Shown in pieces: positions 2,089 through 54,454 of a DNA stretch of 64,000 nt. This DNA comes from a virus (lineage: Duplodnaviria; Caudoviricetes): IMG/VR virus record IMGVR_UViG_2744054452_000001, positions 1 through 64,000 of that record, one strand, 5' to 3'. Numbering within the stretch: position 1 is the stretch's first letter; each line of letters begins with the position of its first letter. Both the position numbers and the translations under genes were made by a program. Below the pieces are notes generated by a model. The model did no database searches, was not told the origin of the DNA, and saw only the letters and a program-made list of their open reading frames with translations.

Positions 2089-3366
2089 TCAGGCAAAGAT
2101 CCGATCTGCGAACTGCATTGCTGCAGTGCGGTCAACCGAACTGAGGCGGTTCATGTAAGCCTTCTCCAGGCCGATCTTGAGACTGCCGCGGGCGATACCA
2201 ATGCGGGCAGCGGCAATCAGGGAACGGGGGCTGATCGGGTTGGACAGACGGGCGCTGTCAAACTCCTTGCGAATCGCAGTGGCAAAGGACACCAGCTTTT
2301 TCGCATCAACCAAGTTGCACTTCGCGGCGGCGGCCACGACCGTTGCCTCCTGCCCTTCATCCATGTAGGGCATGTGCTCGACAATCCCGAAACGCTCGTA
2401 GTTGGCGGCGTTTTGAACAACCGTGCCCTGGTACAAGCCTGTCTCGTCGCCCTGGCCGTTGGTGTTGCCAGTAGCTGCAAAGCGGAAGTTCGGGTGAGGA
2501 AAAATCACTCGGTTCTCGGGGTCTGCTTCCTTGATGATGAGTGGCTTGCCTTCAAGCACGGCCTGGTAGAGCGAGAGCACTTCCGGGCGGGCGAAGTCGT
2601 ATTCGTCTGCCAGGTAGAGCCAGCCGTTCTTCATGGCCAGGGGCAGCATGCCTAGCTCAAAGATGGTTTTCCCGTCGCGCAGGCGCCAACCACCCACGAC
2701 ATGCTCTTCTTCCATGTTTGCGGTGTGCTGCACACGAATCATTGGACGCTGCGTGCGTGCGCAGATTTGCTCCCAGATGGTCGATTTGCCAGTACCAGCG
2801 TGCCCCCAGAGGTATGACGGAATGTTCAGCTCGATGCCGAGGGACAGTGTCTTGAGCACGTCCACATTGAATACGTAGTGCTCATTCAGCTCGGGGATGA
2901 AGCGAACGGAGCCATTCTTCGGCAGGTTCAGCACCGTGACAGGGATAGGCGCACCGGTAGTAGAGCTGCGGGCGGCCGGCGTGTCACCCAGCACGAAAAC
3001 CTCATGAAAGACGCCTCCTGTGCGAGGGTCGCCAGACACGCCGAGTTCATCGCCTGATTCAGTCAGCTCTGACTTAGTTTTTTCAGCGAATGACTTTGTG
3101 GCGTCAGCTGCTTCGATCGCCGCCTTGCGCTCTTTTTCGGCCAGGTGTTGTGCCATTGCTTGCTTGGCGTATGCAGAGTAAATCTCTTCGCCTGGGTACT
3201 TCTCTTGATACTCCTGAATGGTCATGACAGGCTTGCCGTCTGCGCCCTTGTGGTCGTTTTTCAGGTGCAGGGCAATGCTGTGGACAGGGGCATTGCAAAT
3301 TTTGCAGATCACGCGATCAGAAGACGTAGGCTGGATTGCGCGGATTGCATCAGTTGCTGCAGTCAT
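2089..3366 (-). CDS. CobS/MoxR-like AAA+ ATPase with N-terminal Zn finger
   Basis: Walker A GHAGTGKS, Walker B LYLADE, FAATGN, NAANYERF; N-terminal CxxC...HxxxxH. Confidence 0.9.
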   Translation of the reverse strand: MTAATDAIRAIQPTSSDRVICKICNAPVHSIALHLKNDHKGADGKPVMTIQEYQEKYPGEEIYSAYAKQAMAQHLAEKERKAAIEAADATKSFAEKTKSELTESGDELGVSGDPRTGGVFHEVFVLGDTPAARSSTTGAPIPVTVLNLPKNGSVRFIPELNEHYVFNVDVLKTLSLGIELNIPSYLWGHAGTGKSTIWEQICARTQRPMIRVQHTANMEEEHVVGGWRLRDGKTIFELGMLPLAMKNGWLYLADEYDFARPEVLSLYQAVLEGKPLIIKEADPENRVIFPHPNFRFAATGNTNGQGDETGLYQGTVVQNAANYERFGIVEHMPYMDEGQEATVVAAAAKCNLVDAKKLVSFATAIRKEFDSARLSNPISPRSLIAAARIGIARGSLKIGLEKAYMNRLSSVDRTAAMQFADRIFA

Positions 3367-3441
3367 TGGGTTTGCTCATAATTTGTTTCGACAGGGGGAA
3401 GTTTCCCCCTGGGTCTGTGGAACTCAGTTCTGACTTACATT

Positions 3442-16853: not shown

Positions 16854-17963
16854 TTAGTTGCGCATGCGTGCTGCTTGAAGCGTCAGAAGAATCATTGATT
16901 TTTTGCTGACTGGTGTGGCGCGAAAGATGGCGTCGAGCACCATGCTTGGTGGCGTGATGACGTTGCCCGGGCCTTGGGCCGGGTCGTAGTCGGCCGGCAG
17001 CAGCGCAATGGAGACTTCCAGCCCTATTCCGATCAGCAGCTTTGACGCCTCGATCGCCTTGAGCAGTGCCTTGCCTTCGCCGTCCCACATAAAGGTCACA
17101 TGCTTGAGGCCGCGCCTGCGCATCTGGTCGAACTTTGCAACCTGGCCAGCCTCACCTGCGGAAAGGTGCATGCCGAATGTGGCCAGGGCGATCATGTAGT
17201 TCAGCCCTGTCGCCCCGAGCAATGCTTGCCGAATAGCGATAGCGTCGAATGCCCCCTCCCCCACCACCGCGTGGGTATGGATGCCCTCAATGAACGTGTT
17301 CGCGTTGTAGAGGTGCGATCCCGCGACCGCAAAGCCTGCAGGGAAGAGGTACTTGGGCTCACGAGTGCCGGATATGTCGCGGCCCTGGTAGCTCACTAGG
17401 GTGCCCGCCATGTCCCTGATGGGAATGAGCACGCGCTGGTCGAAGGACACATACTTCTCGCCGCCGTCACTGGTCTTGTACGTGTACCAGCCGCCATGAC
17501 AGTACGACAGCTCGAAGTGAACCAGGCTGTCCAGCGTCACGCCGCGGGCCTGCAGGTAGGCCAGGTTCTGCCCCTCGATTGGCAAAGGGATGCACTTGCT
17601 GGGCATGGACAGGTGGTCGGCAGGCTTGTATATCTCCCGCACAGGCTTAGCGGGTGCCCAGCCGGCGTCGGCCGCCAGGTCGATCAGGTAGTTGTCCAGG
17701 GCGTCACCATGGAGGCCGGAGATCAGGCGCACCAGCTTGAACTTGTTGAACTTTTCGCCGCAGGCTCCATGAAAACAGTTGCCGAGGCCCGTGCCTGCAT
17801 TGACGTACACCTTGCGGCCGCCCTCACCACACGCGGGGCATGTCTCCACGTTCAGCTGCATGCCGTTGGTGCCGTAGCTCTGTGTGTAGTCGATGCCTTC
17901 GCGGTCGAAATACTGCTCAATGTCGATCTTCTCAAGGCAGCGGGATAGGTCTTTTGAATCCAT
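16854..17963 (-). CDS. DNA primase (Zn finger + TOPRIM)
   Basis: CPAC...CFHGAC, YQGR, PKYLFP, EGAFDA, MWDGE, DYDP. Confidence 0.9.
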   Translation of the reverse strand: MDSKDLSRCLEKIDIEQYFDREGIDYTQSYGTNGMQLNVETCPACGEGGRKVYVNAGTGLGNCFHGACGEKFNKFKLVRLISGLHGDALDNYLIDLAADAGWAPAKPVREIYKPADHLSMPSKCIPLPIEGQNLAYLQARGVTLDSLVHFELSYCHGGWYTYKTSDGGEKYVSFDQRVLIPIRDMAGTLVSYQGRDISGTREPKYLFPAGFAVAGSHLYNANTFIEGIHTHAVVGEGAFDAIAIRQALLGATGLNYMIALATFGMHLSAGEAGQVAKFDQMRRRGLKHVTFMWDGEGKALLKAIEASKLLIGIGLEVSIALLPADYDPAQGPGNVITPPSMVLDAIFRATPVSKKSMILLTLQAARMRN

Positions 17964-18274
17964 TACTGCACCTCGGGATATGCAGGCTCGGTTCCAGTGA
18001 ATGAGTTGACCTCGCGCTTCAAGCGCAGGACTTCTTCCTCTAACTCCTTGATGCGCTCGCCGTTGTAGGTCGTGTCCAGCACCAGTTCATCATTGAGATA
18101 GACATGGGCACCAATCACATCGCCCATTTCCACCTCATGCGCGCACTGGTGACACAGGCACTGGCGTCCAGCCTGATCGCACTCTGCGAGCTCTGCTGCT
18201 TCCTGGGGACTATTGGCCTTGTATGCGCCGCTGTTGCTGGCGTCATAGATGACGGTTACGTCGTACTTGTTCAT
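17963..18274 (-). CDS. hypothetical protein
   Basis: 103-aa ORF with LCHQCA, coupled to the primase gene. Confidence 0.65.
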   Translation of the reverse strand: MNKYDVTVIYDASNSGAYKANSPQEAAELAECDQAGRQCLCHQCAHEVEMGDVIGAHVYLNDELVLDTTYNGERIKELEEEVLRLKREVNSFTGTEPAYPEVQ

Positions 18275-18382
18275 TTGTGTTGGGTAAAAAAAAGGGGGCT
18301 AGACCGTGATGATCTGCCCCTGTCTATGGACAATTAAACCCAAAACCAGCCCCTAAGAGACTCAGTTCTGACTTAGATTGTA

Positions 18383-19819
18383 TCAGGCTTCACCGATAAC
18401 TTCAACGAGGAACTTTGCCCGTTCAATGTCCTGCTTGATGCTCAGCGTGACGCCGGTGCGCTGGTTGCGCGAGGCGGCAAAGTGCAAGCGTGCGTTGTTG
18501 GCAGCTCGCTCTTCTTCTGTCACGTTGATGGAGATCACCACGTCAGCAATGCGGATCTTGTTGAAGTCTTCGGCAACGTCTGTAGCGCCGGCAACGGCCT
18601 TCTTTGCACCCTCACGATTGGTCTGGGTGGCGGTCAGCAGCGCAAAGCCCTCGGACATGGCCATACCGCGCAGATCCACATAGATCGTGCGGCTGTTTTC
18701 CTGCACGTTGTCGGTGCGGTACTCGGGCGCCATCAGGTCGGCATAGTCAACGACAACGAGGTCGAAGATGATGCCTTGCTGCTTGTAGCGCTCGATCAGG
18801 CGGCGCAGATCGCTAACCTTCATCGAGCCTGTCGGGAACTCGTGTAGGGTCAGGCTAGACAGCTTCGCCAGGCGCTCCTTCACGCGAATCGAGACCTGCT
18901 CGGACTTCGCGTCCAACTCATACATCGGTGTGTCTGAGAGGTTCGCGTCCATGCGGTCAGCGATGATGCCGTTTGCAACCTCAAGGGTGATGTAGAGCAC
19001 CCGGAAGCCAGCATCGGCGGCATTGATCGCAAAGTTAATCATGGCCATGGACTTGCCAGACTTGGCAGCGCCCATGAGCAGCGACATTTCTTTGCGCCCC
19101 CAGCCCTTGTGATACAGGTAGGCGTCGAGCTCTGGATAGCCCGTAGTGATGCCGTTGGGCGCGATGGCACCGCTTGCACGCAAGGCGCGCTCTTTGGTGC
19201 GTGCCTCCAGCATGTCGGCGTAGCTATAGCCCTCCGCACCGTGCGCTACGCCCACCTCAAGGGCGGCACGCATGATCTTTGCGATGCGTTCAAAGTCGCC
19301 CTTGTCAACGAGCTCGGCAGCTTCCAGCACCGCATTCGTGACGGCCTGCTTTTGGGCAAACATGCCCACCTTCTCGGCAACATAGTCTCGATCGGACAGG
19401 TCAACCGAGGGCAAGCGGGTTCGCACGAACTCGATGACCTGGCGGGCAACATCGGGAATGAGCGCCTTCTCAAGCAGCGCGTCCTTGATCGCTGAATTCA
19501 GCGTGACCAGGCTGGGCGCTTCCTTGTACTTGTTGAAGTGACGCTGGGCGATCTTGACCAGGCCGGCATGCGCGGGCTTTTCAAAATACTCAGGGCGCAC
19601 CAGCCCATCCGTCAGCTGGCAGAACTTGGTGTCCCGCGTGAGCATCGCCGCGATCTTCTCTTGGAAGTCGAGGTCGAATTCATAGTGTGCCTCTGCGGGC
19701 GATGATGGGGCTGGCGCTGGTGCAGTTGCGGAGATAGCCGCGACCGCCACCGGTGTCATTCCAGGCAGAGTTGCTGGGTCTGCCACCACCACGCAGGCAG
19801 ATCCATCGTAGCCATCCAT
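18383..19819 (-). CDS. DnaB/gp41-like SF4 replicative helicase
   Basis: GITTGYPELD, GAAKSGKS, YITLE, VVDYAD, TATQTNR. Confidence 0.93.
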   Translation of the reverse strand: MDGYDGSACVVVADPATLPGMTPVAVAAISATAPAPAPSSPAEAHYEFDLDFQEKIAAMLTRDTKFCQLTDGLVRPEYFEKPAHAGLVKIAQRHFNKYKEAPSLVTLNSAIKDALLEKALIPDVARQVIEFVRTRLPSVDLSDRDYVAEKVGMFAQKQAVTNAVLEAAELVDKGDFERIAKIMRAALEVGVAHGAEGYSYADMLEARTKERALRASGAIAPNGITTGYPELDAYLYHKGWGRKEMSLLMGAAKSGKSMAMINFAINAADAGFRVLYITLEVANGIIADRMDANLSDTPMYELDAKSEQVSIRVKERLAKLSSLTLHEFPTGSMKVSDLRRLIERYKQQGIIFDLVVVDYADLMAPEYRTDNVQENSRTIYVDLRGMAMSEGFALLTATQTNREGAKKAVAGATDVAEDFNKIRIADVVISINVTEEERAANNARLHFAASRNQRTGVTLSIKQDIERAKFLVEVIGEA

Positions 19820-20247
19820 TACTTGACCTCGGACTTGTTGAACTCGGGCAGGTCGATGGTGTCGATGGCGTGCTTGTAGATGATGGAATGCACGACCGTG
19901 TTGTTGCCAACTGAGCGCTCCATCGTCACGGTGAAGCGATCGCGGCGAACGATGATGCCGGTGATCTGCGAGCCGTTCAGACGGGTAATGGTGACGGGCT
20001 GGGCGTGATTTTGCACATGAGACAGTGCCGCGTCATGACCCTCGGGCCGAGCACGCTGCACACCTGCGCCGCCGTTGCGGGCCTGGCCCTGCTTGCCGCC
20101 GCGGGCCGCCAGTGTCATCGTGGAGCGATCGGGACGCTCGACGCGCGGAGCTGCGATGTGGCGATGGGCCAGCACGCCGGGCTCAGCCGAGGCTTGGCGG
20201 TTTGCGTCAGAGGGGAATGCTGTGTTGCCGTGGATAGGGGAGTTCAT
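19819..20247 (-). CDS. hfq: Hfq-family (Sm-like) RNA chaperone with N-terminal extension
   Basis: HDAAL...PVTITRLNGSQITGII..RDRFTV...IIYKHAIDTI aligns with Hfq Sm1/Sm2, including the YKHAI signature. Confidence 0.88.
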   Translation of the reverse strand: MNSPIHGNTAFPSDANRQASAEPGVLAHRHIAAPRVERPDRSTMTLAARGGKQGQARNGGAGVQRARPEGHDAALSHVQNHAQPVTITRLNGSQITGIIVRRDRFTVTMERSVGNNTVVHSIIYKHAIDTIDLPEFNKSEVK

Positions 20248-20345
20248 ACTGGTTCAATCATTCGGGCGTCGCCCGGTGCTCAAATTGTGTTTTTCAAGGT
20301 CTGGACTGACCAAGATGCGAGCATTCTAACTGACTCAGTTCTGAC

Positions 20346-21029
20346 TTACTTAAATTGCTTGTAGTGAAGCAATGCAGCCTCTGCTTCTGCCGGGAAGAAC
20401 CTGGTTGCCAGGGCTTCATCAAGCACGCCTTCTTTGATGAGTCGGGAGACCAGTCGATGACGGGGTGCGGCGCGCTTAGAGAGCTGATCCACGACGAACT
20501 CGATATGCGCAACTTGAACCGGGTGCTCTTCCCACTGCAGGGCAAGAAAGAAGGGTTCGCGGCTGTAGGTCAGCTCACGCGCTACCCGCTCCTTCCAAGC
20601 GTTGTAGAGGTCAACCACGCTGTCGTAGCCATACATTTGGTTGGGGCGCGGGAAGGTGCGCCATCCATTGTTGATCGCTCGTCGCATCAGGAACTGCAGC
20701 GCCCACGGGTACGGGCAGCCGATTTTGTCGAGTACCTGCCGCGCTCTCCACACAGAGTTCGCCTCCCGGCTGCGAAGTGCGTCTGCCGGAGCTATCCCAA
20801 CCACCGAGTCGGCCGTGCCGGTGTCCTTGCATGTTGCATAGAACTTCTTCGCCTGCTCGTTGTAGAAGTGCGCCCAGAGATAGGTGGCCTCAGTTGGGTG
20901 CAGAAGCCGGTAGTCAAACCATTTTCGCTGCAGCGCGTCAGGCTCCTTCTCTCTGAACTTCTCATCAATGATGAGCATGGACATTTCGTAGTGATCCCGG
21001 CTGAGTCCTGAGCCGAAGTAGGGTGTCAT
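20346..21029 (-). CDS. hypothetical phage protein
   Basis: 227-aa ORF heading the hfq-helicase operon. Confidence 0.7.
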   Translation of the reverse strand: MTPYFGSGLSRDHYEMSMLIIDEKFREKEPDALQRKWFDYRLLHPTEATYLWAHFYNEQAKKFYATCKDTGTADSVVGIAPADALRSREANSVWRARQVLDKIGCPYPWALQFLMRRAINNGWRTFPRPNQMYGYDSVVDLYNAWKERVARELTYSREPFFLALQWEEHPVQVAHIEFVVDQLSKRAAPRHRLVSRLIKEGVLDEALATRFFPAEAEAALLHYKQFK

Positions 21030-21150
21030 TTGTTCGCTGCCCCATTAAGAACGGTATTTAAGAGAGGGTTATATATAGGGGAAACGCGAAAATCGCTAAC
21101 AAAATTTTCGCTTTATGAAAAATCACCGGTAAGTTATTGAATTGAATAAT

Positions 21151-21186
21151 AAAAAAAGAACCCCGGAATGATGAATTCAGGGGTTC
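21151..21186 (-). terminator. intrinsic terminator after phoH
   Basis: GAACCCC...GGGGTTC stem with a U-run on the minus strand. Confidence 0.7.
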
Positions 21187-21205
21187 GGAACGCTTGGGAG
21201 GAAGC

Positions 21206-22069
21206 CTATCTGCCTGTTTTAATCCATGCAGGGAGGTTCACCGTCAGTAGTTTAGACAGCCCGGTAGGACGGGAACTGGACTCGTCCTGGCGGGAATACA
21301 CACCGAGCATGCTTTTGACAAACCCGGAGCGAACACAGTCTGCGATGGAGAACTCCACGACCGCGACTTCATCGAGCTTACCGGTGCGGCGGATTGCATC
21401 ACCCATGCCAGAGAGACCCTGAATGTCAGATTGATCCAGGTCGCCGCAGATCATCACCTTGCAATTCTGGCCAACTCGGGTGAGCAGCATCTTCATTTGC
21501 TCCGGCGTGGTGTTCTGCGCCTCGTCAACGATGATCCAGGCATCATTGAAGGTGCGCCCGCGCATGAATGCCAGAGGAAGGGGTTCTACCTGGCCACTCT
21601 TGAGCGCATATTCCAGTTGGCCAGCGCCCATGCTGTCCTTCATGATCTGTCGGACTGGCTCGATGTAAGGGGCGAATTTTTCATCCAGCTCGCCAGGCAG
21701 AAAGCCCAGCTTCTCGCCGGCCGCCTCGATTGCGGGTCGTGTAAGGACGATCTTGCTGATTCGCTTAGAAGTGAATGCCTCGCATGCCATTGTCACGGCA
21801 ACATAGGTCTTGCCGGTGCCCGCTGGGCCTGTTGCGAAGATAAGCTGGCTCGTATTGATCGCGGAGATCAGGAGCTTCTGATTGGCGCTCTGCGCCTGCA
21901 GCTTTTTGGCTGGCCTGCTCGGCTGGTATTCCAGCTGAGCAAGTGCATTTGTAAGGTGTGAGTTCACCGGATCGCCCCGGCCAATGCGCCCACTTTTGTT
22001 ATTTTTGTTCTTATGGTTGCTTGCGCTTGCCATCGTCATCTCCAGTGAACTCAGGAACGAACTATACAT
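21206..22069 (-). CDS. phoH: PhoH-family ATPase
   Basis: GPAGTGKT, TRPAIE, LGFLPG, RGRTF, DEAQN, GDLDQSD. Confidence 0.95.
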   Translation of the reverse strand: MYSSFLSSLEMTMASASNHKNKNNKSGRIGRGDPVNSHLTNALAQLEYQPSRPAKKLQAQSANQKLLISAINTSQLIFATGPAGTGKTYVAVTMACEAFTSKRISKIVLTRPAIEAAGEKLGFLPGELDEKFAPYIEPVRQIMKDSMGAGQLEYALKSGQVEPLPLAFMRGRTFNDAWIIVDEAQNTTPEQMKMLLTRVGQNCKVMICGDLDQSDIQGLSGMGDAIRRTGKLDEVAVVEFSIADCVRSGFVKSMLGVYSRQDESSSRPTGLSKLLTVNLPAWIKTGR

Positions 22070-22135
22070 AGTCAGTCCTGACTTACCTATAAGGCAAATG
22101 AAGAAAGTTGAAATATTTTTTCATTTCCACCTTCT

Positions 22136-26159: not shown

Positions 26160-29100
26160 TTACTTTGTACGAATGGCCGCTTCGAGGCTTGCCAGGCGCA
26201 GTTCAAGCGCTTGGTTTTTCTCGTCCAGCTCCTTGATCGCCTCGACCAAATGAGGCACCAAGCGCTCGTACTTGAGGGTCAGGTAGAACTTGCCGGTTTT
26301 GGATTCGCCCTTCACCGCTGTACGGTCGAATGGAGCCTGCTCAACCACCTCGGGAATGATCGCCTGCACGTCCTGAGCCAGCAGGCCGACCTCGGCCTTT
26401 TCCGGGTCGTAGCCATACTTCGCGCCCAGCTTGTTGGCGTGGTAGTGGTAGCCGGTCAGCTGTGCAACGGCTGCCAGCGCACCCTTGATCGGCTTGAGCT
26501 TGGTCTTGAGGCGCTTGTCGGAGTAGTAGGCGGTGACGTTGCCCGTGAACGCGCCCTCATTGCCGACATACAGCGCCTTGCCGTTGTAGACCCGCACCCA
26601 GGTGGAGTCCTGCATCATCATGCCGCCGCCGTATGACTCGCTGTACCAGCCGCAGTTGCCGGTCGTGCGCAGCCAGTCGCTCACGTAGATGCGGGTCGCG
26701 TTAACGCTATTGGCAACATTCCAGTTGCCGCTGTTGTCCATTGCGCAGCCGCCGACATTTGGCTTGTAAAAGCCGATTGCGCCGGAGTTGCCATATGCAT
26801 AGCCGCCACTGCTCGTGAAGAACAACTGCCCTTCACCAGAAGATGTGATCTTTACAGAGCCCGTGACCTCCAGACCGTTGCTGTCGGCACGCAGAAGCTG
26901 TGTGGTTACGTTGGTGCCCGCATTGATGTTGGCAGCACTTGCCCACGACAAATGCCAGCTTTCGCCAAGTTGACCGATGGCAAAGGAGTTGCCACCAGCT
27001 GTCTTTTGCGATGCCCATGCGTGCCAGGAGGATGCAGTGGAGGGGCTGAACACAATAGCGGCCTGGCCGCGGCCGGTGCCGTCAATCCACGATGCGGCGG
27101 CTGTTGGCAGCGTCATAGCGCCCGACACATTGGCAGAGCCGTCGAAGCTCACGCCATTGATGGTGCGCTCGATAGCCAGTTTGGTCGCCGTGCTGGCGTT
27201 GCCTGTCAGCGGGCCGTTGAAACCAGCCGCGAACACCTGGCCAGCAAAGCCAGCGCCGCCCTTGACGATCAGGGAGCCAGTTGTTGTGCTGGTTGCGGCA
27301 GTCGTGGCATTGACGCGCAAAATACCGCTCAGCAAGTTCTCAGACTCGCCGGTCGAATAGATGCCATAGCGCACCCCGGAGAATGTGCCCGAGATACCGA
27401 CCTTGATGCCATATGCGGTCGTTGCCGTGCCCGCCTGATTGCGCACATATGCCTCGTAGCCAATCATGTTGGTGGCGACAGCGGTGGAGTTATTCAGGTG
27501 GGGGTAGCTGTAGTTGCCAATGACAGTCGTAGCGGTCTGGTTGGCAGCACTCAACAGCGAGTAACCGCGCACGCCCTCAATGCGGCCGGTGACTTGCTCG
27601 GTGACAGTGCCTCCTGTTGGCTGTGAGACGACCGCATAACCCCGCACACCGTACAGCTCCTGGGTATGTGCACCGTCAATCGCATCCTGCGCCTCAAAGT
27701 GACCCGCAACGGTCGTCATGTTGAACCCCAGCTCCTTGCCGTTGGCATAGGTGAGGTAAGAGCGAATGCGGGCATATTCCCCGTAAGCGGTACGGGACGC
27801 CGTCAGTGCCCCGTCCTTCACATCGACAAGAATGCGGGAGCCGAAGGGGCTGGAGTTTGCCACGATGGTGTTCTGCAGCACGTCAAGCTGGACACTCGAT
27901 GCGGAAGACGTGCCAATACCAACGCGATCACCAAAGACGCTGACGCCCTTGACGCCCACACCGCCCAGCACACGCAGGGCGCCATCAGTTGCGTCAGTCT
28001 TGCTCGCAATAGAGGTGCTTCGGATGGTTGCTGCAGCGGTGGTCTCAAACATCGAGGCGACAACCTGGAGCACGCCGCCGGCCGAGCCCGTCGTGCCGCC
28101 GTAAGCCATGATGCGGGAGTCGTAATCGACAACAGACGTTCCACTGTGGAAGTCGATATAGGGCGTGGTCGCCACGGTGCCGTTGATGTCGCCAATCTCG
28201 ATAGCTGCGCTCTTGCCGGTTGCCACGATGGAGAGTGAGTCGCTGATCGTTGGGCTGGTACTCAGCACCACGTTACCCGAGCCGGTTGACGTGGTGGTGC
28301 CGGTGCCGCCGCGGGCGACGGGAAGGGTGCCGGCGCTGATGTTCCCTGCGTTCAGCGAGGTCAGGGCCGCGCCGTTGCCGCTGAATGTGGATGCCGCGAG
28401 GTTGCCGTCCCAAATACCATTGCCGTTTTCATCCAGCAGCACCGCGTTCTTGCTAACCGAGTTCGTGTTGGCATCGACGTTGGCCTTGGTCATGTAGTAG
28501 GCGCGCAGCGTGCCCTGGTAGGTCGCAAGACCAATGGAGCCACTGGTCGTATTACCAGCCAGGAACGGCATGAACGCACCAGCTGTCGAGTTCGACGGCT
28601 GCAGGATGGAGCCACCTGCGCGCAGGCTTGCAACGTAGCTCGTGCCAGTTGCAGAGGTGAAGCCATTGATCGTAGAGACCTGGCCGGGGAAGTTCGTGTT
28701 GCCGTTCTCGTCCAAGAGCGCGGCCTGGCGCTTGATTGCGGCAAACGATCCCGTGTACTGGCGCACATAAATCTGCTCAGATCCGTCATCGGCAGTGGCC
28801 AGCTCGGCAAAGCCGTTGTTCGTGGACGTGGCACCAACACCCAGGCGGAACGCATCGCTGCCGCCCATCTTCGCGTAGATGATCGGGGCAACCACGTTCG
28901 ACACATTGGCGGCCGTCATCGAAATGTAGCTATTGGGGTCGTCAGGAACTACAAACTTCTTGCCTGGTTTCAGCTCCAGGTCGATTGAGTCGGTAAGGAC
29001 GCGCTCCCATTCAGACCAGTCGGAAACAGGCGTTCCCGTTGCGTCGTTGCCGCGAACAAAGAGCGCCTTGCCGTTGTTCAGGATCTGGGCAACGTCATTT

Positions 29101-32100
29101 CGTGCGGAGCTCCCCAGCACCACGCCGCCGAAGTCGGCAGCACCAGTAAAGGGCAGCGAGTCGGCATATGTGTTGGCACTGCTGTCAGTGCTTGAGCGGG
29201 AACCATGAAAGAAGCCAGCGGACAGCACAGTGTTGAGCGACTTGGCTGTTACGTCTTCGATGGATGCCGGCACCACAATGTCGCTTGTGCCGTCGAAGTC
29301 CGTGCCGTTGATCGTGCGAGTGTTCAGCAGCTTGGTGGCGCTGGCCACGTTGCCGCTAACGAACGCAACTTCTTGAGGCGCAGTCCATGAGTATGTGGCT
29401 ACGTCGCCATGGGCACGCACAAAAAGGCGCGTCTTGCCGGATTGCCACTCGTGGTAAATCTCAGTCGTGGCGATGCCCTGATGGCCAACCAGGCGAATGC
29501 GATTGCCGTAGGTGATCGGGTATCCAGATGCGGTGCCGTTGTAGATGCCGTCAACGTACACGCCTGACGTGAGGCCGTAGGTCGCCGTGCCGGTGGGCAT
29601 CGCTCCCGAGGCATTGCCGAGGTATGGGGCGTTGACAGTAATGTTGCCGGTGCCGTCGAACTCCACACCGTTGATGGTGCGTGCCGTCTGCAGCTTGTTT
29701 GCCGACTCAACGAGGGACGTGAGCGACCATGCCTTCCAGGTCTTGCCGCTATCGACCGACCAGCGCATTGCGCTGGCGTAAGGAGCGGTATCGCTCATGG
29801 CCTCTTGGACAATGCGCGGGCCGTTATGGCTGACACGGATCATGCCCCAGCTCGTGAGGTTCGTGCCGCTGATGCTTGGGCCGCCGGGCTGCACGCTCAG
29901 ACCCTGCTGGCTGAAATAGTCACCAGGGGTCACGAGGTTGTCGAGGTTCGCTGTCTTGCTCAGCAGCAAGCCGTCTGTGACGAAGTTGTCGAGCGCGCTC
30001 GGCTTGTAGGCGGTGGCGACCTTACCCATTTCGATCTGGACGTTGTCAACGTCCATGAACACAGGCGTGACTCCGTCGATACCGTTGATGCGGCCGAAAT
30101 AGACGTAGACGCCAGTGGTGCCGGCGGGCGCAGGGCCGGCGGCCAGAATACAGCGCTGGAAGTCGGTCTCTGAGCCAATATCAAACGCCCGGCTTGGCGT
30201 GCTGATTGTTCCATTGGAGGCATTGCGCCACTGCAGGTACATGCGGAACGTCGCGCCTACAGTGCCACGGATATGCGAGCTGGCAACAACGAAGTCTCCT
30301 GGCTGCGCAGGGATGGTCGCCGCCGTCACAACGTCCATGTAGCGAGTCGCAGAGAGCTTTTCCCCGTACATGCGGAATGCCACGGAGCTTTGGGCCAGGG
30401 GTGACTCGACATAGGAGCGCGTCACCTTCTCGCCAGAAACCGCGCTGGTGCCCGCAATGCTGGAGCCAAAACCCTTCGGTGACACGGTCACTGTGCCTAC
30501 CAGTGGCTCGCCCTCTTCTGTCCTTGCCTCAAAGCTGGAGTTGACCTGCAGGTTCGCACCGCCGACCGAAAGGGAGCTGTTGAGCACGTTGGAAAGGAGA
30601 TCCGGCGACAGCTGCGCCTCCGGAACGAAACCGCCGGAGTCGAGCGTTGCAACGCCGCTCTTTGCCCCCGCCTTGTTGGCATCGAGCTTGGCGTTCAGGG
30701 CGGTCTGGGTCGCTGTGCTGATCGGCTTGTTGGCGTCAGACGTGTTGTTCACGTTGCCCAGGCCAAGGTCTGCGAGCGTCCATGCGATGTTTGCAGAGCC
30801 GTCGAATGAACGTGCCGTCGATCCGATGGTCACTGTGCGCGCTGTGGTCAGCTTCGCCGCGCTCCCGGTTGTGTTTTGGTTGCCGGTGGTGTTGACGCCA
30901 GGAAGGTCAATATTCGCGGTGCCGTCGAAGTTCACACCGCCAATAGAGCGCACCGTTGCCAGCTTGGCAGCAGCGGTTGCCGTGCCGCGTGATGTTGTGA
31001 CGTTCTCGGCCCAATCGGTGAAAACCCAGCCAGATGCGCCGCGAGCGCCAGTGCGCGACCAGGACGTGTTGCCGGAATAGACCGTCTGAATTACAGCAGA
31101 GCCAGCGTCATACAGGCGCCGAATGATGTGAATGACGCCCGTGTAAGAAGCGCTCGCGCCCAATGGGCCGTTGGTGTACGTACCGGACAGGGTATAGAAG
31201 CCGCCTGCCGTGGCCGTCACCATGGTGTCGAAGTCGGTTCCGCCGTCTGTGGCTGCCCCGCCGTTGCCTGGCGCATTGCGTGCCTGGGCAACGCCTAGCG
31301 CAACCAGTGCGCTCAGAGGCGCCTCACCAGTCAGCATCGACGCATCCAGCGCAGTCACAGGGATGATCGCGTTGCCAGAGCCGTCGAATACGGTCGCCGT
31401 ACCAGTTGCCGCGCCAGCCATCGAAATGGTGCGGGCGGTCTGCAGCTTGGTGGCGGTGCCGGCATTGCCCGACACGGCCAGGGGCGGGTCATTGGTTGTA
31501 TAGACCCGCTCCCATGCACTCCACTCATTGACGCCGTAGAACGCACGCTGGTAGGTTTTTCGTCCAGAGTCAGAGCGGTAGGTCGTCAGCTCTTGGATGT
31601 AGCCGGCGGCGCGCCACACGCGCAGAGAAAATGCCTCTCCCGTGGGGCAATTCAGCAGTGTTGCTGCCGTCACGTTGGCGGCGCAGTAGTACGCCCCTTC
31701 GTTTTTGAAGTCGTTGAGGTCTTGATTGGACGCGATGGGCACGCCCTGCCACTGCAGAGCGATATTGCTGGTGCCATCGAAGTTCACACCGTTGATGGTT
31801 CGCGCGGTCTGCAGCTTTGTCGCTGTGGCGGCGTTACCGGTGGTGCTCTGGTTGCCGGCAGTGTTCACGCCTGGCAGGTTGATGTTCGCCGTACCGTCGA
31901 AGCTCACACCGCCGATCGTGCGGGCAGTCTGCAGCTTGGTGGCGCTAGCCACGTTGTCGGTCTTGGTAGCGGCACCAACATCAGCAGCCGACAGCACGAC
32001 CGCCCCGGTCTTGCCGTTGACGGTCGTTACAGCCGCGGAATTGTTGATGCGGTAGAAGGCCGCCAGCACCTTGGAGTAGATCAGGAAGTCGCCTGCCTCG

Positions 32101-33203
32101 TACAGCACGCCACTCACGGTTCCACCGACCTGGACGCGCCAGATAGAGGCAAGGCCAGGGGTTGCTGGATACTTTCCCGTGCTCAGATCCACGCCGCCCA
32201 TTTCAGCGAACGAGTTCTGGACGCTGCCGACGATCGAACGTGCGGTGTCCTCGCTCTCTTTGGCGGCTGCAGCAGAAGCCGCTGCAGCGGTCTCGCTGGT
32301 CTTTGAGTTGGTCTCGCTGGTCTTTGCATTCAGCGCAGACGCCGCGGCGTTCGATGCGCTGTTGCTCGCCTCCGTTGCCTTGGACGATGCGGTCGATGCA
32401 CTGCCGGCGGCCGCAGTTTGGCTGGCGGCAGCGTTGGTTTCGCTGGTCTTGGCCGCAGTTTGGCTGGCGGCAGCGTTGGTTTCGCTGGTCTTGGCCGCAG
32501 TTTGGCTGGCGGCAGCCGCAGTTTGGCTGGCAGCAGCAGCAGTTTTGCTCGATGCGGCGTTGGTCTCGCTGGTCTTGGCGTTGGTCTCGCTGGTCTTAGA
32601 TGCCGTCTGGCTGGTTTTTGCCTGGTCGGCGTAGTATTTGGCACCGTAACCCTGGCCAGTCACCACTTCTGAGGTGGTCTGTGTTGCCCACTTTTGTGCC
32701 TGTGCCGCACTGGAGCTGGAGCTGGTTGCGCTCGCGGCGGCATTACCGGCGCTGGCTGCAGCATTGGTCTCGCTGTTCTTGGCGTTCGTTGCGTGCGTGT
32801 TGGACTTGGCGATGTTTTCAGTCGTGACCGCCATGGCCTCGCTGGCAACGACCGCAGACTCGGCTGCTTTTTCAATCGCCAGATTCGCACTCTCAAGCGC
32901 GCTCAGAACGTCCGACGAGACAGTTTTGTGGGCATTGATAATGTCTGCCGCAGAGTGCGCCAGCTCACGCGAATAGCCCTGGACAGGGATGATCTCGTAA
33001 GGGGCGGTGGTGCTGGGGCCGGCGTATGCCCTGGCAAGCGTGATCTCAGTTGCCGAGACCACGGTTTTGATTTCGTAGTGTTTGCCGTCCGGGCCCACGA
33101 AGGCTTCACCGCGCTCAATGTTGTCAACAAAGTTGGCGAGCGAGCAAATGACCTTCGCGGAACCGTTCACGACGGTAGCGTTACCGCGCTTGTACCATTC
33201 CAT
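26160..33203 (-). CDS. long tail fibre with C-terminal S74 intramolecular chaperone
   Basis: Stf-like AAKTSETN repeats, repeated ATKLQTARTIxGVxFDGT modules, YSDKRLK...GLLAQDVQ C-terminus. Confidence 0.92.
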   Translation of the reverse strand: MEWYKRGNATVVNGSAKVICSLANFVDNIERGEAFVGPDGKHYEIKTVVSATEITLARAYAGPSTTAPYEIIPVQGYSRELAHSAADIINAHKTVSSDVLSALESANLAIEKAAESAVVASEAMAVTTENIAKSNTHATNAKNSETNAAASAGNAAASATSSSSSAAQAQKWATQTTSEVVTGQGYGAKYYADQAKTSQTASKTSETNAKTSETNAASSKTAAAASQTAAAASQTAAKTSETNAAASQTAAKTSETNAAASQTAAAGSASTASSKATEASNSASNAAASALNAKTSETNSKTSETAAAASAAAAKESEDTARSIVGSVQNSFAEMGGVDLSTGKYPATPGLASIWRVQVGGTVSGVLYEAGDFLIYSKVLAAFYRINNSAAVTTVNGKTGAVVLSAADVGAATKTDNVASATKLQTARTIGGVSFDGTANINLPGVNTAGNQSTTGNAATATKLQTARTINGVNFDGTSNIALQWQGVPIASNQDLNDFKNEGAYYCAANVTAATLLNCPTGEAFSLRVWRAAGYIQELTTYRSDSGRKTYQRAFYGVNEWSAWERVYTTNDPPLAVSGNAGTATKLQTARTISMAGAATGTATVFDGSGNAIIPVTALDASMLTGEAPLSALVALGVAQARNAPGNGGAATDGGTDFDTMVTATAGGFYTLSGTYTNGPLGASASYTGVIHIIRRLYDAGSAVIQTVYSGNTSWSRTGARGASGWVFTDWAENVTTSRGTATAAAKLATVRSIGGVNFDGTANIDLPGVNTTGNQNTTGSAAKLTTARTVTIGSTARSFDGSANIAWTLADLGLGNVNNTSDANKPISTATQTALNAKLDANKAGAKSGVATLDSGGFVPEAQLSPDLLSNVLNSSLSVGGANLQVNSSFEARTEEGEPLVGTVTVSPKGFGSSIAGTSAVSGEKVTRSYVESPLAQSSVAFRMYGEKLSATRYMDVVTAATIPAQPGDFVVASSHIRGTVGATFRMYLQWRNASNGTISTPSRAFDIGSETDFQRCILAAGPAPAGTTGVYVYFGRINGIDGVTPVFMDVDNVQIEMGKVATAYKPSALDNFVTDGLLLSKTANLDNLVTPGDYFSQQGLSVQPGGPSISGTNLTSWGMIRVSHNGPRIVQEAMSDTAPYASAMRWSVDSGKTWKAWSLTSLVESANKLQTARTINGVEFDGTGNITVNAPYLGNASGAMPTGTATYGLTSGVYVDGIYNGTASGYPITYGNRIRLVGHQGIATTEIYHEWQSGKTRLFVRAHGDVATYSWTAPQEVAFVSGNVASATKLLNTRTINGTDFDGTSDIVVPASIEDVTAKSLNTVLSAGFFHGSRSSTDSSANTYADSLPFTGAADFGGVVLGSSARNDVAQILNNGKALFVRGNDATGTPVSDWSEWERVLTDSIDLELKPGKKFVVPDDPNSYISMTAANVSNVVAPIIYAKMGGSDAFRLGVGATSTNNGFAELATADDGSEQIYVRQYTGSFAAIKRQAALLDENGNTNFPGQVSTINGFTSATGTSYVASLRAGGSILQPSNSTAGAFMPFLAGNTTSGSIGLATYQGTLRAYYMTKANVDANTNSVSKNAVLLDENGNGIWDGNLAASTFSGNGAALTSLNAGNISAGTLPVARGGTGTTTSTGSGNVVLSTSPTISDSLSIVATGKSAAIEIGDINGTVATTPYIDFHSGTSVVDYDSRIMAYGGTTGSAGGVLQVVASMFETTAAATIRSTSIASKTDATDGALRVLGGVGVKGVSVFGDRVGIGTSSASSVQLDVLQNTIVANSSPFGSRILVDVKDGALTASRTAYGEYARIRSYLTYANGKELGFNMTTVAGHFEAQDAIDGAHTQELYGVRGYAVVSQPTGGTVTEQVTGRIEGVRGYSLLSAANQTATTVIGNYSYPHLNNSTAVATNMIGYEAYVRNQAGTATTAYGIKVGISGTFSGVRYGIYSTGESENLLSGILRVNATTAATSTTTGSLIVKGGAGFAGQVFAAGFNGPLTGNASTATKLAIERTINGVSFDGSANVSGAMTLPTAAASWIDGTGRGQAAIVFSPSTASSWHAWASQKTAGGNSFAIGQLGESWHLSWASAANINAGTNVTTQLLRADSNGLEVTGSVKITSSGEGQLFFTSSGGYAYGNSGAIGFYKPNVGGCAMDNSGNWNVANSVNATRIYVSDWLRTTGNCGWYSESYGGGMMMQDSTWVRVYNGKALYVGNEGAFTGNVTAYYSDKRLKTKLKPIKGALAAVAQLTGYHYHANKLGAKYGYDPEKAEVGLLAQDVQAIIPEVVEQAPFDRTAVKGESKTGKFYLTLKYERLVPHLVEAIKELDEKNQALELRLASLEAAIRTK
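32405..32600. repeat. 21/42-bp intragenic tandem repeats (AAASQT/AKTSETN)
   Basis: Repeated GCAGTTTGGCTGGCGGCAGC and TCGCTGGTCTTGGC units. Confidence 0.8.
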
Positions 33204-33261
33204 GTTTTTCTTCTTCTTATGTGGTTGGGCGCGGTAATTCTAAGTCAGTATTGACTTATCT

Positions 33262-42329: not shown

Positions 42330-42383
42330 GGGGAATCCAGTGGCTTGTTTGCCACTGGATTCTAAGTCAGCACTGACTTAGCA

Positions 42384-54275: not shown

Positions 54276-54454
54276 TGCGTTTGTTTTTATTGTTTTCGCA
54301 GATGCCATAGTAAGTCATTACTGACTTACAAGCAAGCAAAGAGCGGGGCACGGGCTGGGAACATCCCCAGGCGAGAAGGGAGGAAAGATCTAAAAACTTC
54401 CCGCCTACCCGTGCCCTGTCTCATGGCTTGCGGCGAGTATAACTCAGTTCTGAC

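What the first reader, a model, noticed from the sequence alone, without database searches (positions are those of the whole stretch)
19819..20247. Phage-encoded Hfq with intact proximal face but lost distal face and rim
Seen: an Sm-fold core with the YKHAI signature, coupled (TAATG) to the helicase gene and preceded by an 18-bp palindrome. By manual alignment to E. coli Hfq, D9, D40, F42, Y55, K56 and H57 (proximal, U-rich 3'-end binding) are kept. Y25 becomes T and I30 becomes S (distal ARN pocket), and rim R16/R17/R19 are missing. It also has an about 70-aa Arg/Gly-rich N-terminal extension. Known: Y25 and I30 substitutions impair (ARN)n binding. Inference: the protein may form mixed hexamers with host Hfq and weaken its distal face, or sequester sRNA 3' ends.
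Basis: partly seen in the sequence, partly recalled or inferred. Interest (0 to 1): 0.85.

Follow-up and report, generated by a model that had tools for sequence, protein, structure and literature searches.

The report
Phage Hfq-like ring beside replicative helicase
This phage gene encodes a divergent relative of the bacterial RNA chaperone Hfq, from a phage-only group that sits directly before the replicative helicase gene in every related stretch examined, and it keeps only one of Hfq's three RNA-binding surfaces.

Summary
The ORF at 19819-20247 (-) is real. It encodes a 142-aa Hfq-family Sm protein: Pfam Hfq 42.8 bits against a cut-off of 27, a confident AF2 core, and Hfq structures as every listed PDB match.

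Q8, F39 and Q41 are also changed, so the proximal face is not fully intact. The perfect palindrome is 13 nt, not 18.

These traits belong to a whole clade, not to this protein alone. About 100 metagenomic proteins share KGHD...RD[KR][FY]T[IV]T...YKHAIE and a basic N-terminal tail. Proximal positions are near-invariant; distal and rim positions vary or are acidic.

The gene always lies between a phrog_2500 gene and the DnaB-like helicase gene:
- all 19 clade IMG/VR contigs,
- Pseudomonas phage hairong,
- 11 of 12 metagenome loci.

In the window, the two genes are bracketed by copies of an 18-site phage motif.

Best reading: a homo-oligomeric ring that binds RNA on one face only, made together with the helicase. 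Its target is unknown. Mixed hexamers with host Hfq have no support. A role as helicase partner stays open. No paper describing this clade turned up, though one GenBank record already labels it hfq.

The parts
19819..20247 (-). Hfq-like gene, 142 aa (P0001)
   Evidence: ORF list and translation. Pfam Hfq 42.8 bits. The start codon is supported by the N-terminal motifs N-T/S-x-F/Y-P-S-D and RHIxAPR shared with P0003 and P0004, and by the ATG-AAC start common in relatives.
19852..20037 (-). Sm/Hfq core, residues 71-132: one helix and five strands
   Evidence: AF2 with the 93-sequence alignment gives block-mean pLDDT of 93-98 over residues 71-130 and 92 over 131-140, with H71-80, E84-89, E94-102, E106-113, E117-124 and E128-132. 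Every row listed by Foldseek against the PDB is an Hfq entry, with target-normalised TM of 0.8-0.89 for most.
20038..20247 (-). Basic, low-complexity N-terminal tail (residues 1-70), predicted disordered
   Evidence: pLDDT 50-58. 9 Arg, 8 Gly and 12 Ala in the 69 residues before G70, net charge +5. All 93 of 93 clade members have a net-positive tail of 17-86 residues.
19817..19821 (-). TAATG stop/start overlap with the helicase gene
   Evidence: Sequence. In relatives the Hfq-like stop lies from an overlap to about 25 nt before the helicase start.
18383..19819 (-). DnaB-like replicative helicase, 478 aa
   Evidence: Pfam DnaB_C, E 1.9e-17. It is 41-47% identical to the helicases of Nickievirus, RHEph10-like, SSU5-like, Stenotrophomonas and Xanthomonas phages.
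20263..20275 (-). 13-nt perfect palindrome, seen as a small GC hairpin in the predicted leader
   Evidence: Several relatives have a small GC-rich hairpin at a similar place in the leader but with a different sequence (by eye and RNAfold; no statistics).
20323..20348 (-). Copy of the phage motif TAAGTCAG-N-CTGA... followed by a -10-like TAGAAT; putative promoter/operator of the Hfq-like/helicase pair
   Evidence: The pattern gives 24 matches at 18 sites in the window, against 0.09 expected. Relatives have the same motif followed by TATAAT upstream of their Hfq-like gene. Promoter function is inferred.
18358..18375 (-). Next copy of the same motif, just after the helicase stop; it bounds the two-gene unit
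20346..21029 (-). Upstream gene of unknown function (phrog_2500), conserved neighbour
   Evidence: PHROGs E 1.3e-39. Conserved upstream of the Hfq-like gene in relatives.
21206..22069 (-). PhoH-like ATPase, conserved neighbour
   Evidence: Pfam PhoH, E 3.4e-71; synteny.
16854..17963 (-). DNA primase, in the same replication module
   Evidence: Pfam DNAG_N; synteny.

Best explanation
SHOWN. The gene encodes a member of a distinct, so far phage-only clade of the Hfq family. The clade has four marks: (1) the motifs K-G-H-D ... R-D-K/R-F/Y-T-I/V-T ... Y-K-H-A-I-E; (2) a beta3-beta4 loop of variable length; (3) a basic, probably disordered N-terminal tail in place of Hfq's C-terminal tail; (4) a fixed position directly upstream of a DnaB-like replicative helicase gene, in the order PhoH, phrog_2500, Hfq-like, DnaB, primase, ligase, in roughly 100-110-kb siphophages related to Pseudomonas Nickievirus.

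INFERRED. The protein forms a homo-oligomeric Sm ring, most likely a hexamer as Hfq does. It binds single-stranded, probably U-rich nucleic acid on one face only. That face is the conserved proximal pocket (H8, D9, R39, D40, K/R41, F/Y42, Y55, K56, H57 in Hfq numbering), made more basic than in Hfq and helped by the basic N-terminal tails that leave the ring on that side. The A-rich (distal) site and the arginine rim patch are absent across the clade, so it cannot pair an sRNA with an mRNA the way Hfq does. It more likely holds, protects or sequesters RNA 3' ends or leaders. It is made from a short two-gene unit with the helicase, so it acts when replication genes are expressed. Whether its RNA targets are the phage's own transcripts (for example its own leader or the helicase mRNA) or host sRNAs is not known.
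For: FAMILY AND FOLD. Pfam Hfq 42.8 bits against a cut-off of 27. The AF2 core has block-mean pLDDT above 90. Every row listed by Foldseek against the PDB is an Hfq entry.

CLADE. The exhaustive phmmer search gave 107 hits at E <= 1e-3. About 100 of them are 80-160-aa proteins with the KGHD/RDKFT/YKHAIE pattern and an N-terminal extension. Only 2 look canonical, and 3 are spurious repeat proteins. 91 of 93 aligned members hit Pfam Hfq.

ONE-FACE CONSERVATION (93 sequences).
- Proximal positions: H8 93, D9 93, R39 89, D40 93, K/R41 92, F/Y/W42 93, Y/F55 93, K56 93, H57 87.
- Distal position 25: T30, V16, I10, R7.
- Distal position 30: E35, D18, S11.
- Rim position 16: Q in 88. Position 17 is variable. 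Position 19: G32, K30, R12.

TAIL. It is net positive in 93 of 93 members, with a median length of 39 residues.

SYNTENY.
- All 19 distinct IMG/VR contigs that carry a clade member have the helicase directly downstream. So does phage hairong.
- 11 of 12 metagenome loci do too.
- The gap from stop to helicase start runs from an overlap to about 25 nt.

TWO-GENE UNIT. Motif copies lie at 20331-20348 and 18358-18375, with none between them.

PHAGE-ONLY SO FAR.
- No hit in 72,556 plasmids.
- No hit in two pattern-limited scans of 185,579 species genomes.
- Cluster members come from metagenome contigs of up to 110 kb.

PRECEDENT FROM A PAPER. T4 GoF, a predicted LSm-like protein, in its D25Y form stabilises the mRNA of the T4 helicase gene 41 (PMC12152347; abstract, introduction and discussion read).
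Against: Q8, which contacts uracil in Hfq (recalled), is His throughout the clade. Specificity for U is therefore an assumption, and ssDNA is equally possible.

The helicase's relatives in Rhizobium RHEph10-like and SSU5-like phages have no gene in this slot. The protein is therefore dispensable for that helicase family.

Stenotrophomonas phages have an Hfq-fold protein in the slot with N-R-R in place of Y-K-H. This suggests that what is conserved may be the ring next to the helicase rather than the YKH pocket.

The invariance counts come from 93 sequences that I selected. Ten more divergent clade-like hits were left out. Some of them have G-H-E, or S or A at position 39.

This copy has no clear Shine-Dalgarno sequence before its ATG.
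Confidence: 0.5

Rival explanations
1. Helicase partner. The Hfq-fold ring works directly with the DnaB-like hexamer in DNA replication, for example as a loader, an ssDNA or primer-handling factor, or a stoichiometric accessory subunit. RNA regulation would be secondary or absent.
For: The stop-to-helicase-start gap runs from an overlap to about 25 nt in every clade locus examined. The two genes form a unit bounded by promoter-like motifs. The slot is also filled by an Hfq-fold protein that lacks YKH in Stenotrophomonas phage BUCTxx99. A 94%-identical homologue, P0118, folds with pLDDT 91.5, and its top PDB hits are all Hfq, with TM 0.73-0.80. In many phages the gene just upstream of the replicative helicase encodes its loader; lambda P and SPP1 G39P are examples (recalled).
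Against: Helicases 42-47% identical in RHEph10-like and SSU5-like phages have only 118 nt and 60 nt of non-coding DNA in the slot, so the helicase family does not need such a partner. The strongest constraint in the clade is on the RNA-type proximal pocket. No Sm-fold helicase loader is known to me (recalled). The interaction could not be modelled. The P0118 model rests on an alignment of 4 sequences, and 2 of its 5 models were poor, at pLDDT 61.8 and 52.5.
Confidence: 0.2
2. Decoy for host sRNAs. A homo-hexamer soaks up the U-rich 3' ends of host Hfq-dependent sRNAs. Without a distal face or rim it cannot deliver them to mRNAs, so host riboregulation is switched off.
For: The proximal pocket is conserved, and the distal and rim surfaces are not, over 93 members. 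The basic tails would add affinity. An Hfq encoded on a mobile element has precedent: pXO1 Hfq3 (PMC5348863, abstract read).
Against: Nothing links the gene to host-takeover genes; it sits in the replication module. Q8 is replaced by His. The host is unknown. The YKH-less Hfq-fold protein in the same slot in Stenotrophomonas phages would not fit a 3'-end decoy.
Confidence: 0.15
3. Poison subunit. The phage protein co-assembles with host Hfq into mixed hexamers whose distal face and rim are defective.
For: The beta4-beta5 segment that forms the subunit interface in Hfq (recalled) is the most Hfq-like part of the protein: IIYKHAIDTI here against LIYKHAISTY in the printed 1kq1 alignment.
Against: No test was possible. 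Overall identity to solved Hfqs is only 25-34%. The clade has its own invariant motifs (K-G-H-D, R39, Q16) across members whose hosts are unidentified apart from Pseudomonas syringae for the Nickievirus isolates. That fits a self-contained ring better than a fit to one host's Hfq. A 70-residue basic tail on each subunit and a longer L4 loop would have to be accommodated.
Confidence: 0.05

Closest known systems
Canonical bacterial Hfq (Pfam PF17209; solved structures 1kq1/1kq2 and 3qsu from S. aureus, 6gwk from C. crescentus, 3rer and 3qhs from E. coli)
   Same: Sm fold with an N-terminal helix and five strands. The YKHAI Sm2 motif is present. D9, D40, F/Y42, Y55, K56 and H57 are kept. Every row listed in the structure search is an Hfq entry.
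   Different: His replaces Gln at position 8. Arg replaces Phe/Tyr at 39. There are no aromatic or aliphatic distal residues at 25 and 30, and no R16/R17/R19 rim patch. The beta3-beta4 loop is 5 residues longer. A long basic N-terminal tail replaces the C-terminal tail. The score is below NCBIfam's Hfq equivalog cut-off. The gene is phage-encoded and coupled to a helicase gene.
Pseudomonas syringae Nickievirus phages (hairong, nickie, phiK7B1, ZY21, Nican01): the small ORF upstream of the replicative helicase
   Same: Same clade: the A2 profile hits the hairong ORF at E 2.2e-17. Same gene order: PhoH, hypothetical, Hfq-like, helicase, primase, ligase.
   Different: Only about 23% identity to the window protein over 64 residues in tblastn. 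The N-terminal tail is shorter (88 aa in total), and hairong has G-H-E, Q-F-D-N-Y and Y-K-H-C-I. Four of the five phages annotate it as hypothetical protein; Nican01 annotates it 'hfq: RNA-binding protein Hfq'. The Nican01 paper's main text does not mention Hfq (0 occurrences).
T4 GoF / MotB.1 / Frd.2, predicted LSm-like proteins of Tevenvirinae (Kim et al. 2025, PMC12152347)
   Same: Phage-encoded Sm/LSm-like fold. GoF(D25Y) raises the stability of the mRNA of the T4 replicative helicase gene 41, which links a phage Sm-like protein to helicase expression.
   Different: According to the paper, those proteins have no sequence homologues outside phages and were recognised only by AlphaFold3. The protein here is a sequence-detectable Hfq homologue with the YKH motif. 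I made no direct comparison of the sequences or models.
Pfam PF21979 Hfq_1 ('Hfq related')
   Same: 13 of 93 clade members also match it at E <= 1e-3. The nearest ESM Atlas clusters carry PF21979 and PF17209, and their members are of similar length.
   Different: The window protein itself shows no PF21979 match at E <= 1. The Atlas clusters are labelled mostly Bacteria/Acidobacteriota from the few members with a record. I did not examine that family's definition.
Hfq3 of the Bacillus anthracis plasmid pXO1 (Keefer et al. 2017, PMC5348863)
   Same: An extra Hfq homologue carried on a mobile element.
   Different: According to the abstract, Hfq3's toxicity on overexpression depends on its distal face, which is exactly the surface missing here. 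It is plasmid-borne, not phage-borne, and has no helicase coupling that I know of.
69-72-aa Hfq-fold proteins of Stenotrophomonas phages (BUCTxx99 WPH68506 and homologues P0118-P0121)
   Same: Same slot between the phrog_2500-like gene and the helicase gene, overlapping the helicase start. Predicted Hfq fold.
   Different: No significant sequence similarity to the clade (hhalign E 0.014, probability 3%). N-R-R replaces Y-K-H. There is no N-terminal tail, and a C-terminal helix is present instead.

Membership tests
Hfq family (Pfam PF17209) | Score at or above Pfam's gathering cut-off | tested here: met
   42.8 bits against 27, E 4.1e-11, residues 72-131 on profile positions 3-57 of 64. 91 of 93 clade members match at E <= 1e-3.
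Hfq family (Pfam PF17209) | Sm fold: N-terminal helix followed by a five-stranded bent sheet | tested here: met
   AF2 gives H71-80 plus five strands, with block-mean pLDDT above 90 across the core. Foldseek against the PDB lists Hfq entries in every row, with target-normalised TM up to 0.89.
Hfq family (Pfam PF17209) | Sm2 motif Y-K-H-A-I | tested here: met
   Y124-K125-H126-A127-I128.
Hfq family (Pfam PF17209) | Homo-hexameric ring | not testable with these tools
Only a monomer was modelled.
Canonical RNA chaperone Hfq (NCBIfam TIGR02383 equivalog; sRNA-mRNA matchmaker) | Equivalog score cut-off | tested here: not met
   40.9 bits against a cut-off of 61.7. NF001602 gives 32.2 against 95.
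Canonical RNA chaperone Hfq (NCBIfam TIGR02383 equivalog; sRNA-mRNA matchmaker) | Complete proximal uridine pocket (Q8, F39, Q/K41, F/Y42, K56, H57; residue list recalled) | tested here: inconclusive
   F105, K125 and H126 are kept, and R104 resembles K41 of S. aureus. But position 8 is His and position 39 is Arg. Both changes are fixed across the clade: 93 of 93 and 89 of 93.
Canonical RNA chaperone Hfq (NCBIfam TIGR02383 equivalog; sRNA-mRNA matchmaker) | Distal A-rich site (Y25/I30 in E. coli, F25/F30 in S. aureus) | tested here: not met
   T88 and S93 align with F25 and F30 of 1kq1. Across the clade, position 25 is variable and position 30 is mostly Glu or Asp.
Canonical RNA chaperone Hfq (NCBIfam TIGR02383 equivalog; sRNA-mRNA matchmaker) | Arginine patch on the rim (R16, R17, R19; recalled) | tested here: not met
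   Q79, N80 and A82 occupy these positions. Position 16 is Q in 88 of 93 clade members.
Phage KGHD-type Hfq-like clade (defined here) | Motifs K-G-H-D and R-D-K/R-F/Y-T-I/V-T, plus a basic N-terminal tail | tested here: met
   The window has E69 (K in 85 of 93 members), G70-H71-D72 and R102-D103-R104-F105-T106-V107-T108. Its tail is 69 residues with net charge +5.
Phage KGHD-type Hfq-like clade (defined here) | Position directly upstream of a DnaB-like helicase and downstream of a phrog_2500 gene | tested here: met
   Window. All 19 clade IMG/VR contigs, phage hairong, and 11 of 12 metagenome loci.
T4 GoF-type LSm-like family | Homology or structural match to GoF, MotB.1 or Frd.2 | not tested
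   No GoF sequence or model was compared. The relation rests on the paper's description only.

The most novel reading that the evidence does not exclude
Hfq-fold rings are dedicated partners of a phage replicative helicase. On this reading a hexameric Sm ring has been recruited into DNA replication, loading DnaB or handing ssDNA or RNA primers to it. The YKH-containing clade found here and the YKH-less Stenotrophomonas-phage proteins would be two versions of the same helicase accessory.
Probability: 0.15. Interest if true: 0.85.

Novelty: new variant of a known kind. Interest (0 to 1): 0.6.

Why it matters
Hfq is the central RNA matchmaker of many bacteria, and its three RNA-binding surfaces have been dissected mostly by mutagenesis. 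This clade is a natural separation of those functions. The proximal pocket is under strict constraint, while the distal face and rim patch are gone and a basic N-terminal tail has been added. Phages maintain it across helicase divergence down to about 45% identity.

The clade offers three things:
- a simple system for asking what a proximal-face-only Sm ring can do;
- a possible new layer of post-transcriptional control, or a replication accessory, in a widespread group of roughly 110-kb phages, including phages under study for biocontrol of Pseudomonas syringae;
- a link to the unresolved observation that T4's LSm-like GoF affects helicase mRNA.

In four of the five isolate phages that carry it, the gene is annotated as a hypothetical protein.

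Tried and rejected
1. Close relatives in isolate phages. megablast of 18000-22000 and tblastn of P0001 against 50,697 phage records found nothing. Only a more typical clade member (P0019) and the hairong ORF gave hits.

2. PHROGs. P0001 has no hit. Of 93 clade members, 14, 4 and 2 hit three unannotated PHROGs, so PHROGs gave no function.

3. The search for related loci with the single protein found nothing.

4. Bacterial genomes and plasmids. There was no clade member in two pattern-limited scans of genome contigs or in PLSDB by tblastn with P0019. These negatives are limited by the patterns and the single query.

5. Long 'hits' P0031, P0037 and P0042 with 6-9 matched stretches. I checked them as possible tandem-Hfq proteins. 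They are unrelated repeat proteins with per-repeat scores near 4 bits, so I rejected them.

6. Small ORFs in the slot in BUCTxx99 and JGB6. Profile-sequence comparison to the clade was not significant (E 0.014 and 0.053). The Hfq fold of the BUCTxx99 type was then shown by modelling a homologue. A viral-contig scan for the BUCTxx99 protein found nothing.

7. RNA features. The window has no tRNA and no Rfam family at gathering score. The 116-nt leader folds with z = -2.05; 5 of 200 shuffles folded as well, which is weak. The consensus scan found no sigma-70 promoter and only one terminator-like site on the wrong strand.

8. Expression. No RNA holder was listed among the 8 public runs returned, and read laying was not used.

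Nothing was folded and nothing can be said.

11. Literature. Searches found no paper describing a phage-encoded Hfq clade. The terms 'phage-encoded Hfq', 'prophage-encoded Hfq' and 'viral Hfq' had 0 occurrences in the listed papers. One search found 8 papers that mention Nickievirus. I searched the main text of one (PMC11256456) and found no mention of Hfq.


Full report
WHAT IS THERE. The window is the first 64 kb of an 80.5-kb IMG/VR virus record that CheckV estimates to be 71% complete. It encodes a tape measure protein, a gpJ-like tail tip, a 2347-aa fibre with an S74 chaperone domain, a large terminase, CobT, an ATP-dependent ligase, a primase, a DnaB-like helicase and PhoH. It is therefore a siphophage. 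The ORF at 19819..20247 on the minus strand encodes 142 aa (P0001). Its TAA stop overlaps the ATG of the 478-aa DnaB-like helicase gene as TAATG.

IS IT AN Hfq? Yes, by sequence and by fold.
- Pfam PF17209 matches residues 72-131 at 42.8 bits (cut-off 27, E 4.1e-11).
- phmmer finds five solved Hfqs; the best is S. aureus 1kq1 at E 3e-4.
- An AF2 model built on a 93-sequence family alignment has a helix at 71-80 and five strands. Block-mean pLDDT is 93-98 over residues 71-130 and 92 over 131-140. Residues 1-65 are at pLDDT 50-58.
- Every row listed by Foldseek against the PDB is an Hfq entry. These include the E. coli construct with a lengthened L4 loop, 6xyj.
- It is not an orthodox Hfq. It scores 40.9 bits against NCBIfam's equivalog cut-off of 61.7.

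I used the printed alignments, in which the 1kq1 chain numbers 8-65 are given. The E. coli residue identities are recalled.

| Hfq positions | Residues in the window protein | Outcome |
|---|---|---|
| 9, 40, 42, 55, 56, 57 | D72, D103, F105, Y124, K125, H126 | kept |
| 25, 30 | T88, S93 | distal residues lost |
| 16, 17, 19 | Q79, N80, A82 | no rim arginines |

The N-terminal extension is 69 residues, with 9 Arg, 8 Gly, 12 Ala and net charge +5.

The perfect palindrome before the gene is 13 nt (20263-20275), not 18. An 18-bp element at 20331-20348 is discussed below.

THE KEY RESULT: THESE ARE CLADE TRAITS. An exhaustive phmmer search of 1.84 billion representatives gave 107 hits at E <= 1e-3. 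The sequences break down as follows:
- 3 are unrelated repeat proteins;
- 2 are canonical Hfqs, one single-domain and one tandem;
- 1 is a 98%-identical copy;
- the rest are 80-160-aa proteins with the pattern (F)xAKGHDAxLxxxQ ... xRD[KR][FY]T[IV]T ... variable loop ... [IF]YKHAIE, preceded by an N-terminal extension.

I aligned 93 of them as A2. That is 91 of the 107 hits plus P0001 and P0004. I dropped the 6 hits above and 10 more divergent clade-like ones, some of which have G-H-E, or S or A at position 39.

In A2 the proximal positions are almost invariant: H8 93/93, D9 93/93, R39 89/93, D40 93/93, K/R41 92/93, F/Y/W42 93/93, Y/F55 93/93, K56 93/93, H57 87/93. K at position -2 is present in 85/93 and G at -1 in 93/93.

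The distal and rim positions are not conserved:
- position 25: T30, V16, I10, R7;
- position 30: E35, D18, S11;
- positions 31 and 33: highly variable;
- rim position 16: Gln in 88/93;
- position 17: variable;
- position 19: G32, K30, R12.

Every member has a net-positive N-terminal tail of 17-86 residues (median 39) and a short C-terminal tail (median 10). 91 of 93 hit Pfam Hfq and 13 of 93 also hit PF21979 Hfq_1. Close relatives P0003 and P0004 (46-47% identical by BLASTP) share N-terminal motifs with the window protein, which supports the long ORF and its start.

WHERE THE CLADE LIVES. Cluster look-ups show only metagenomic sources, with contigs of up to 105-110 kb. One source calls its member 'RNA chaperone Hfq'.

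Scans of IMG/VR with three sub-alignments returned 24 loci on 23 contigs.
- Four (L004-L007) carry an ordinary 76-aa Hfq in an unrelated context.
- The other 19 contigs all have the DnaB-like helicase gene immediately downstream. Where the flank reaches, the order PhoH, phrog_2500, Hfq-like, DnaB, primase, ligase is seen, except that L015 shows no PhoH within its 5-kb flank (L021 by HMM).
- The Hfq-like stop lies from an overlap to about 25 nt before the helicase start.

A metagenome scan added 12 loci. Eleven have the helicase directly downstream; the twelfth is a 1.1-kb fragment without it.

Among isolates, Pseudomonas phage hairong (Nickievirus, 112.8 kb) has the same order. The ORF is also present in nickie, phiK7B1, ZY21 and Nican01. 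Four of these five phages annotate it as hypothetical, and Nican01 annotates it 'hfq: RNA-binding protein Hfq'.

There was no hit in 72,556 plasmids and none in two pattern-limited scans of 185,579 species genomes.

HOW FAR THE LINK TO THE HELICASE GOES. The helicase has 41-47% identical relatives in several phage groups.
- Rhizobium RHEph10-like phages have no gene between the phrog_2500-like gene and the helicase, only 118 nt. SSU5-like phage-plasmids have only 60 nt. The Hfq-like gene is therefore an accessory of part of this supergroup.
- Stenotrophomonas phage BUCTxx99 has a 69-aa ORF that overlaps the helicase start, and Xanthomonas phage JGB6 has a 68-aa ORF in the slot. Neither is significantly similar to the clade (hhalign E 0.014 and 0.053).
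- A 94%-identical homologue of the BUCTxx99 protein (P0118; alignment of 4 sequences) nevertheless folds at pLDDT 91.5. Three of its five models are confident and the other two are at 61.8 and 52.5. Its listed PDB hits are Hfq or Hfq-like entries throughout, with TM 0.73-0.80 and rmsd 1.3-1.7 A for the top-ranked ones. It has N-R-R where Hfq has Y-K-H, no N-terminal tail, and a C-terminal helix.
- An Hfq-fold protein next to the helicase gene is thus wider than the YKH clade.

TRANSCRIPTION UNIT. The pattern TAAGTCA-N2-5-TGA occurs 24 times at 18 sites in the window, against 0.09 expected. At six of the 18 sites the pattern matches on both strands; five of these are perfect TAAGTCAG-N2-CTGACTTA palindromes and the sixth (54311-54328) departs at one pair. 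Most sites lie between genes. One copy (20331-20348), followed by TAGAAT, lies just after the phrog_2500 stop and 84-101 nt upstream of the Hfq-like ATG. The next copy on that strand (18358-18375) lies just after the helicase stop. The Hfq-like and helicase genes therefore look like a two-gene unit.

Relatives have the same motif followed by TATAAT upstream of their Hfq-like gene, then a leader of 45-55 nt that often contains a small GC hairpin at a similar place but with a different sequence. In the window that hairpin is the 13-nt palindrome. That the motif is a promoter or operator is my inference. The simple sigma-70 scan found nothing.

MECHANISM. Shown: family, fold, clade, the conservation pattern and the synteny.

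Inferred:
- The protein forms a homo-oligomeric ring, as Sm proteins do.
- It binds single-stranded nucleic acid on the conserved proximal side. That side is more basic than in Hfq (K at -2, R39, K/R41).
- The basic tails add to that surface, because the N-terminal helix of Hfq lies on the proximal side (recalled).
- There is no A-rich site and no arginine rim, so it cannot match an sRNA to an mRNA in Hfq's way. It more likely holds, protects or sequesters RNA ends.
- Because it is produced with the helicase, I favour a post-transcriptional role during the replication phase. Its targets are undetermined: the phage's own leaders and 3' ends, or host sRNAs.

T4 offers a parallel. The predicted LSm-like GoF, in its D25Y form, stabilises helicase gene 41 mRNA (PMC12152347; abstract, introduction and discussion read). 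That paper states that, to the authors' knowledge, theirs is the first phage-encoded LSm-like family.

I give the one-face RNA-binder reading 0.5. A direct helicase partner gets 0.2; the YKH-less slot proteins raise it and the helicases that lack any such gene lower it. A host-sRNA decoy taken as a separate claim gets 0.15, and a poison subunit in mixed hexamers 0.05. These overlap in part and are not exclusive.

WHAT COULD NOT BE DONE.
- No RNA-seq holder was listed.
- The host of the window phage is unknown. The window has no tRNA and no Rfam match.

NOVELTY. The fold and family are known. Automatic annotation already labels some members as Hfq, and Pfam has an 'Hfq related' family that catches a minority of them. 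I could not find any description in print of the following:
- the clade as such;
- its one-face conservation pattern;
- its basic N-terminal tail;
- its fixed coupling to a replicative helicase;
- the presence of a second, YKH-less Hfq-fold protein in the same slot.

I rate it a new variant of a known kind, with interest 0.6.

Noticed in passing
window, 18 sites, e.g. 61113-61130, 42363-42380, 33241-33258, 22068-22085, 20331-20348, 18358-18375: The motif TAAGTCAG-N2-CTGACTTA is strongly over-represented: the pattern gives 24 matches against 0.09 expected. Five sites are perfect 18-bp palindromes. Most sites lie between genes and many are followed by a -10-like TAnAAT. It is probably the phage's own promoter/operator element, and it is also present in related phages upstream of their Hfq-like genes.
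   Followed up: partly
L004-L007 (IMG/VR contigs), ORF e.g. L005:5998-6228: An ordinary 76-aa Hfq with the QE..LRRERQPVTVFLMNGYQMQG...FDAF...YKHAIST pattern is carried on four viral contigs. None of the replication-module neighbours is present. So canonical Hfq genes also occur on viral or proviral contigs.
   Followed up: partly
L029:2781-2990 (Stenotrophomonas phage BUCTxx99) and L030:2774-2980 (Xanthomonas phage JGB6): Small ORFs of 68-69 aa sit in the same slot before the helicase gene. The BUCTxx99 type is predicted to have an Hfq fold but carries N-R-R in place of Y-K-H. The JGB6 protein was not modelled.
   Followed up: partly
L027 (Rhizobium phage RHEph10) and L028 (Salmonella phage SSU5): The window's helicase, and in RHEph10 the whole module, is shared with RHEph10-like phages and with SSU5-like phage-plasmids. 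Both lack any gene between the phrog_2500-like gene and the helicase. The window phage thus belongs to a wide supergroup that includes phage-plasmids of enterobacteria.
   Followed up: partly
window 2089-5841 (-): A CobT-like VWA protein (799 aa) lies next to a 425-aa ATPase assigned to phrog_249 ('porphyrin biosynthesis'). This is a CobS/CobT-like pair of the kind listed among auxiliary genes in large phages.
   Followed up: no
leaders upstream of the Hfq-like genes, e.g. window 20263-20275; L009, L025, L036, L037 and L040 about 25-45 nt before the start codon: A small GC-rich hairpin recurs at a similar place in the leader with a different sequence in each phage, in some of them followed by a T-run. 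It could be a 5' stabiliser, an attenuator or a binding site for the protein itself. I did no covariation statistics.
   Followed up: partly
window 26160-33203 (-): A 2347-aa ORF ends in a Peptidase_S74 intramolecular chaperone domain. It is a very long tail fibre, and it lies next to a 1788-aa gpJ-like tip protein.
   Followed up: no
P0109: A 145-aa protein contains two canonical Hfq domains in tandem, each with YKHAI.
   Followed up: no
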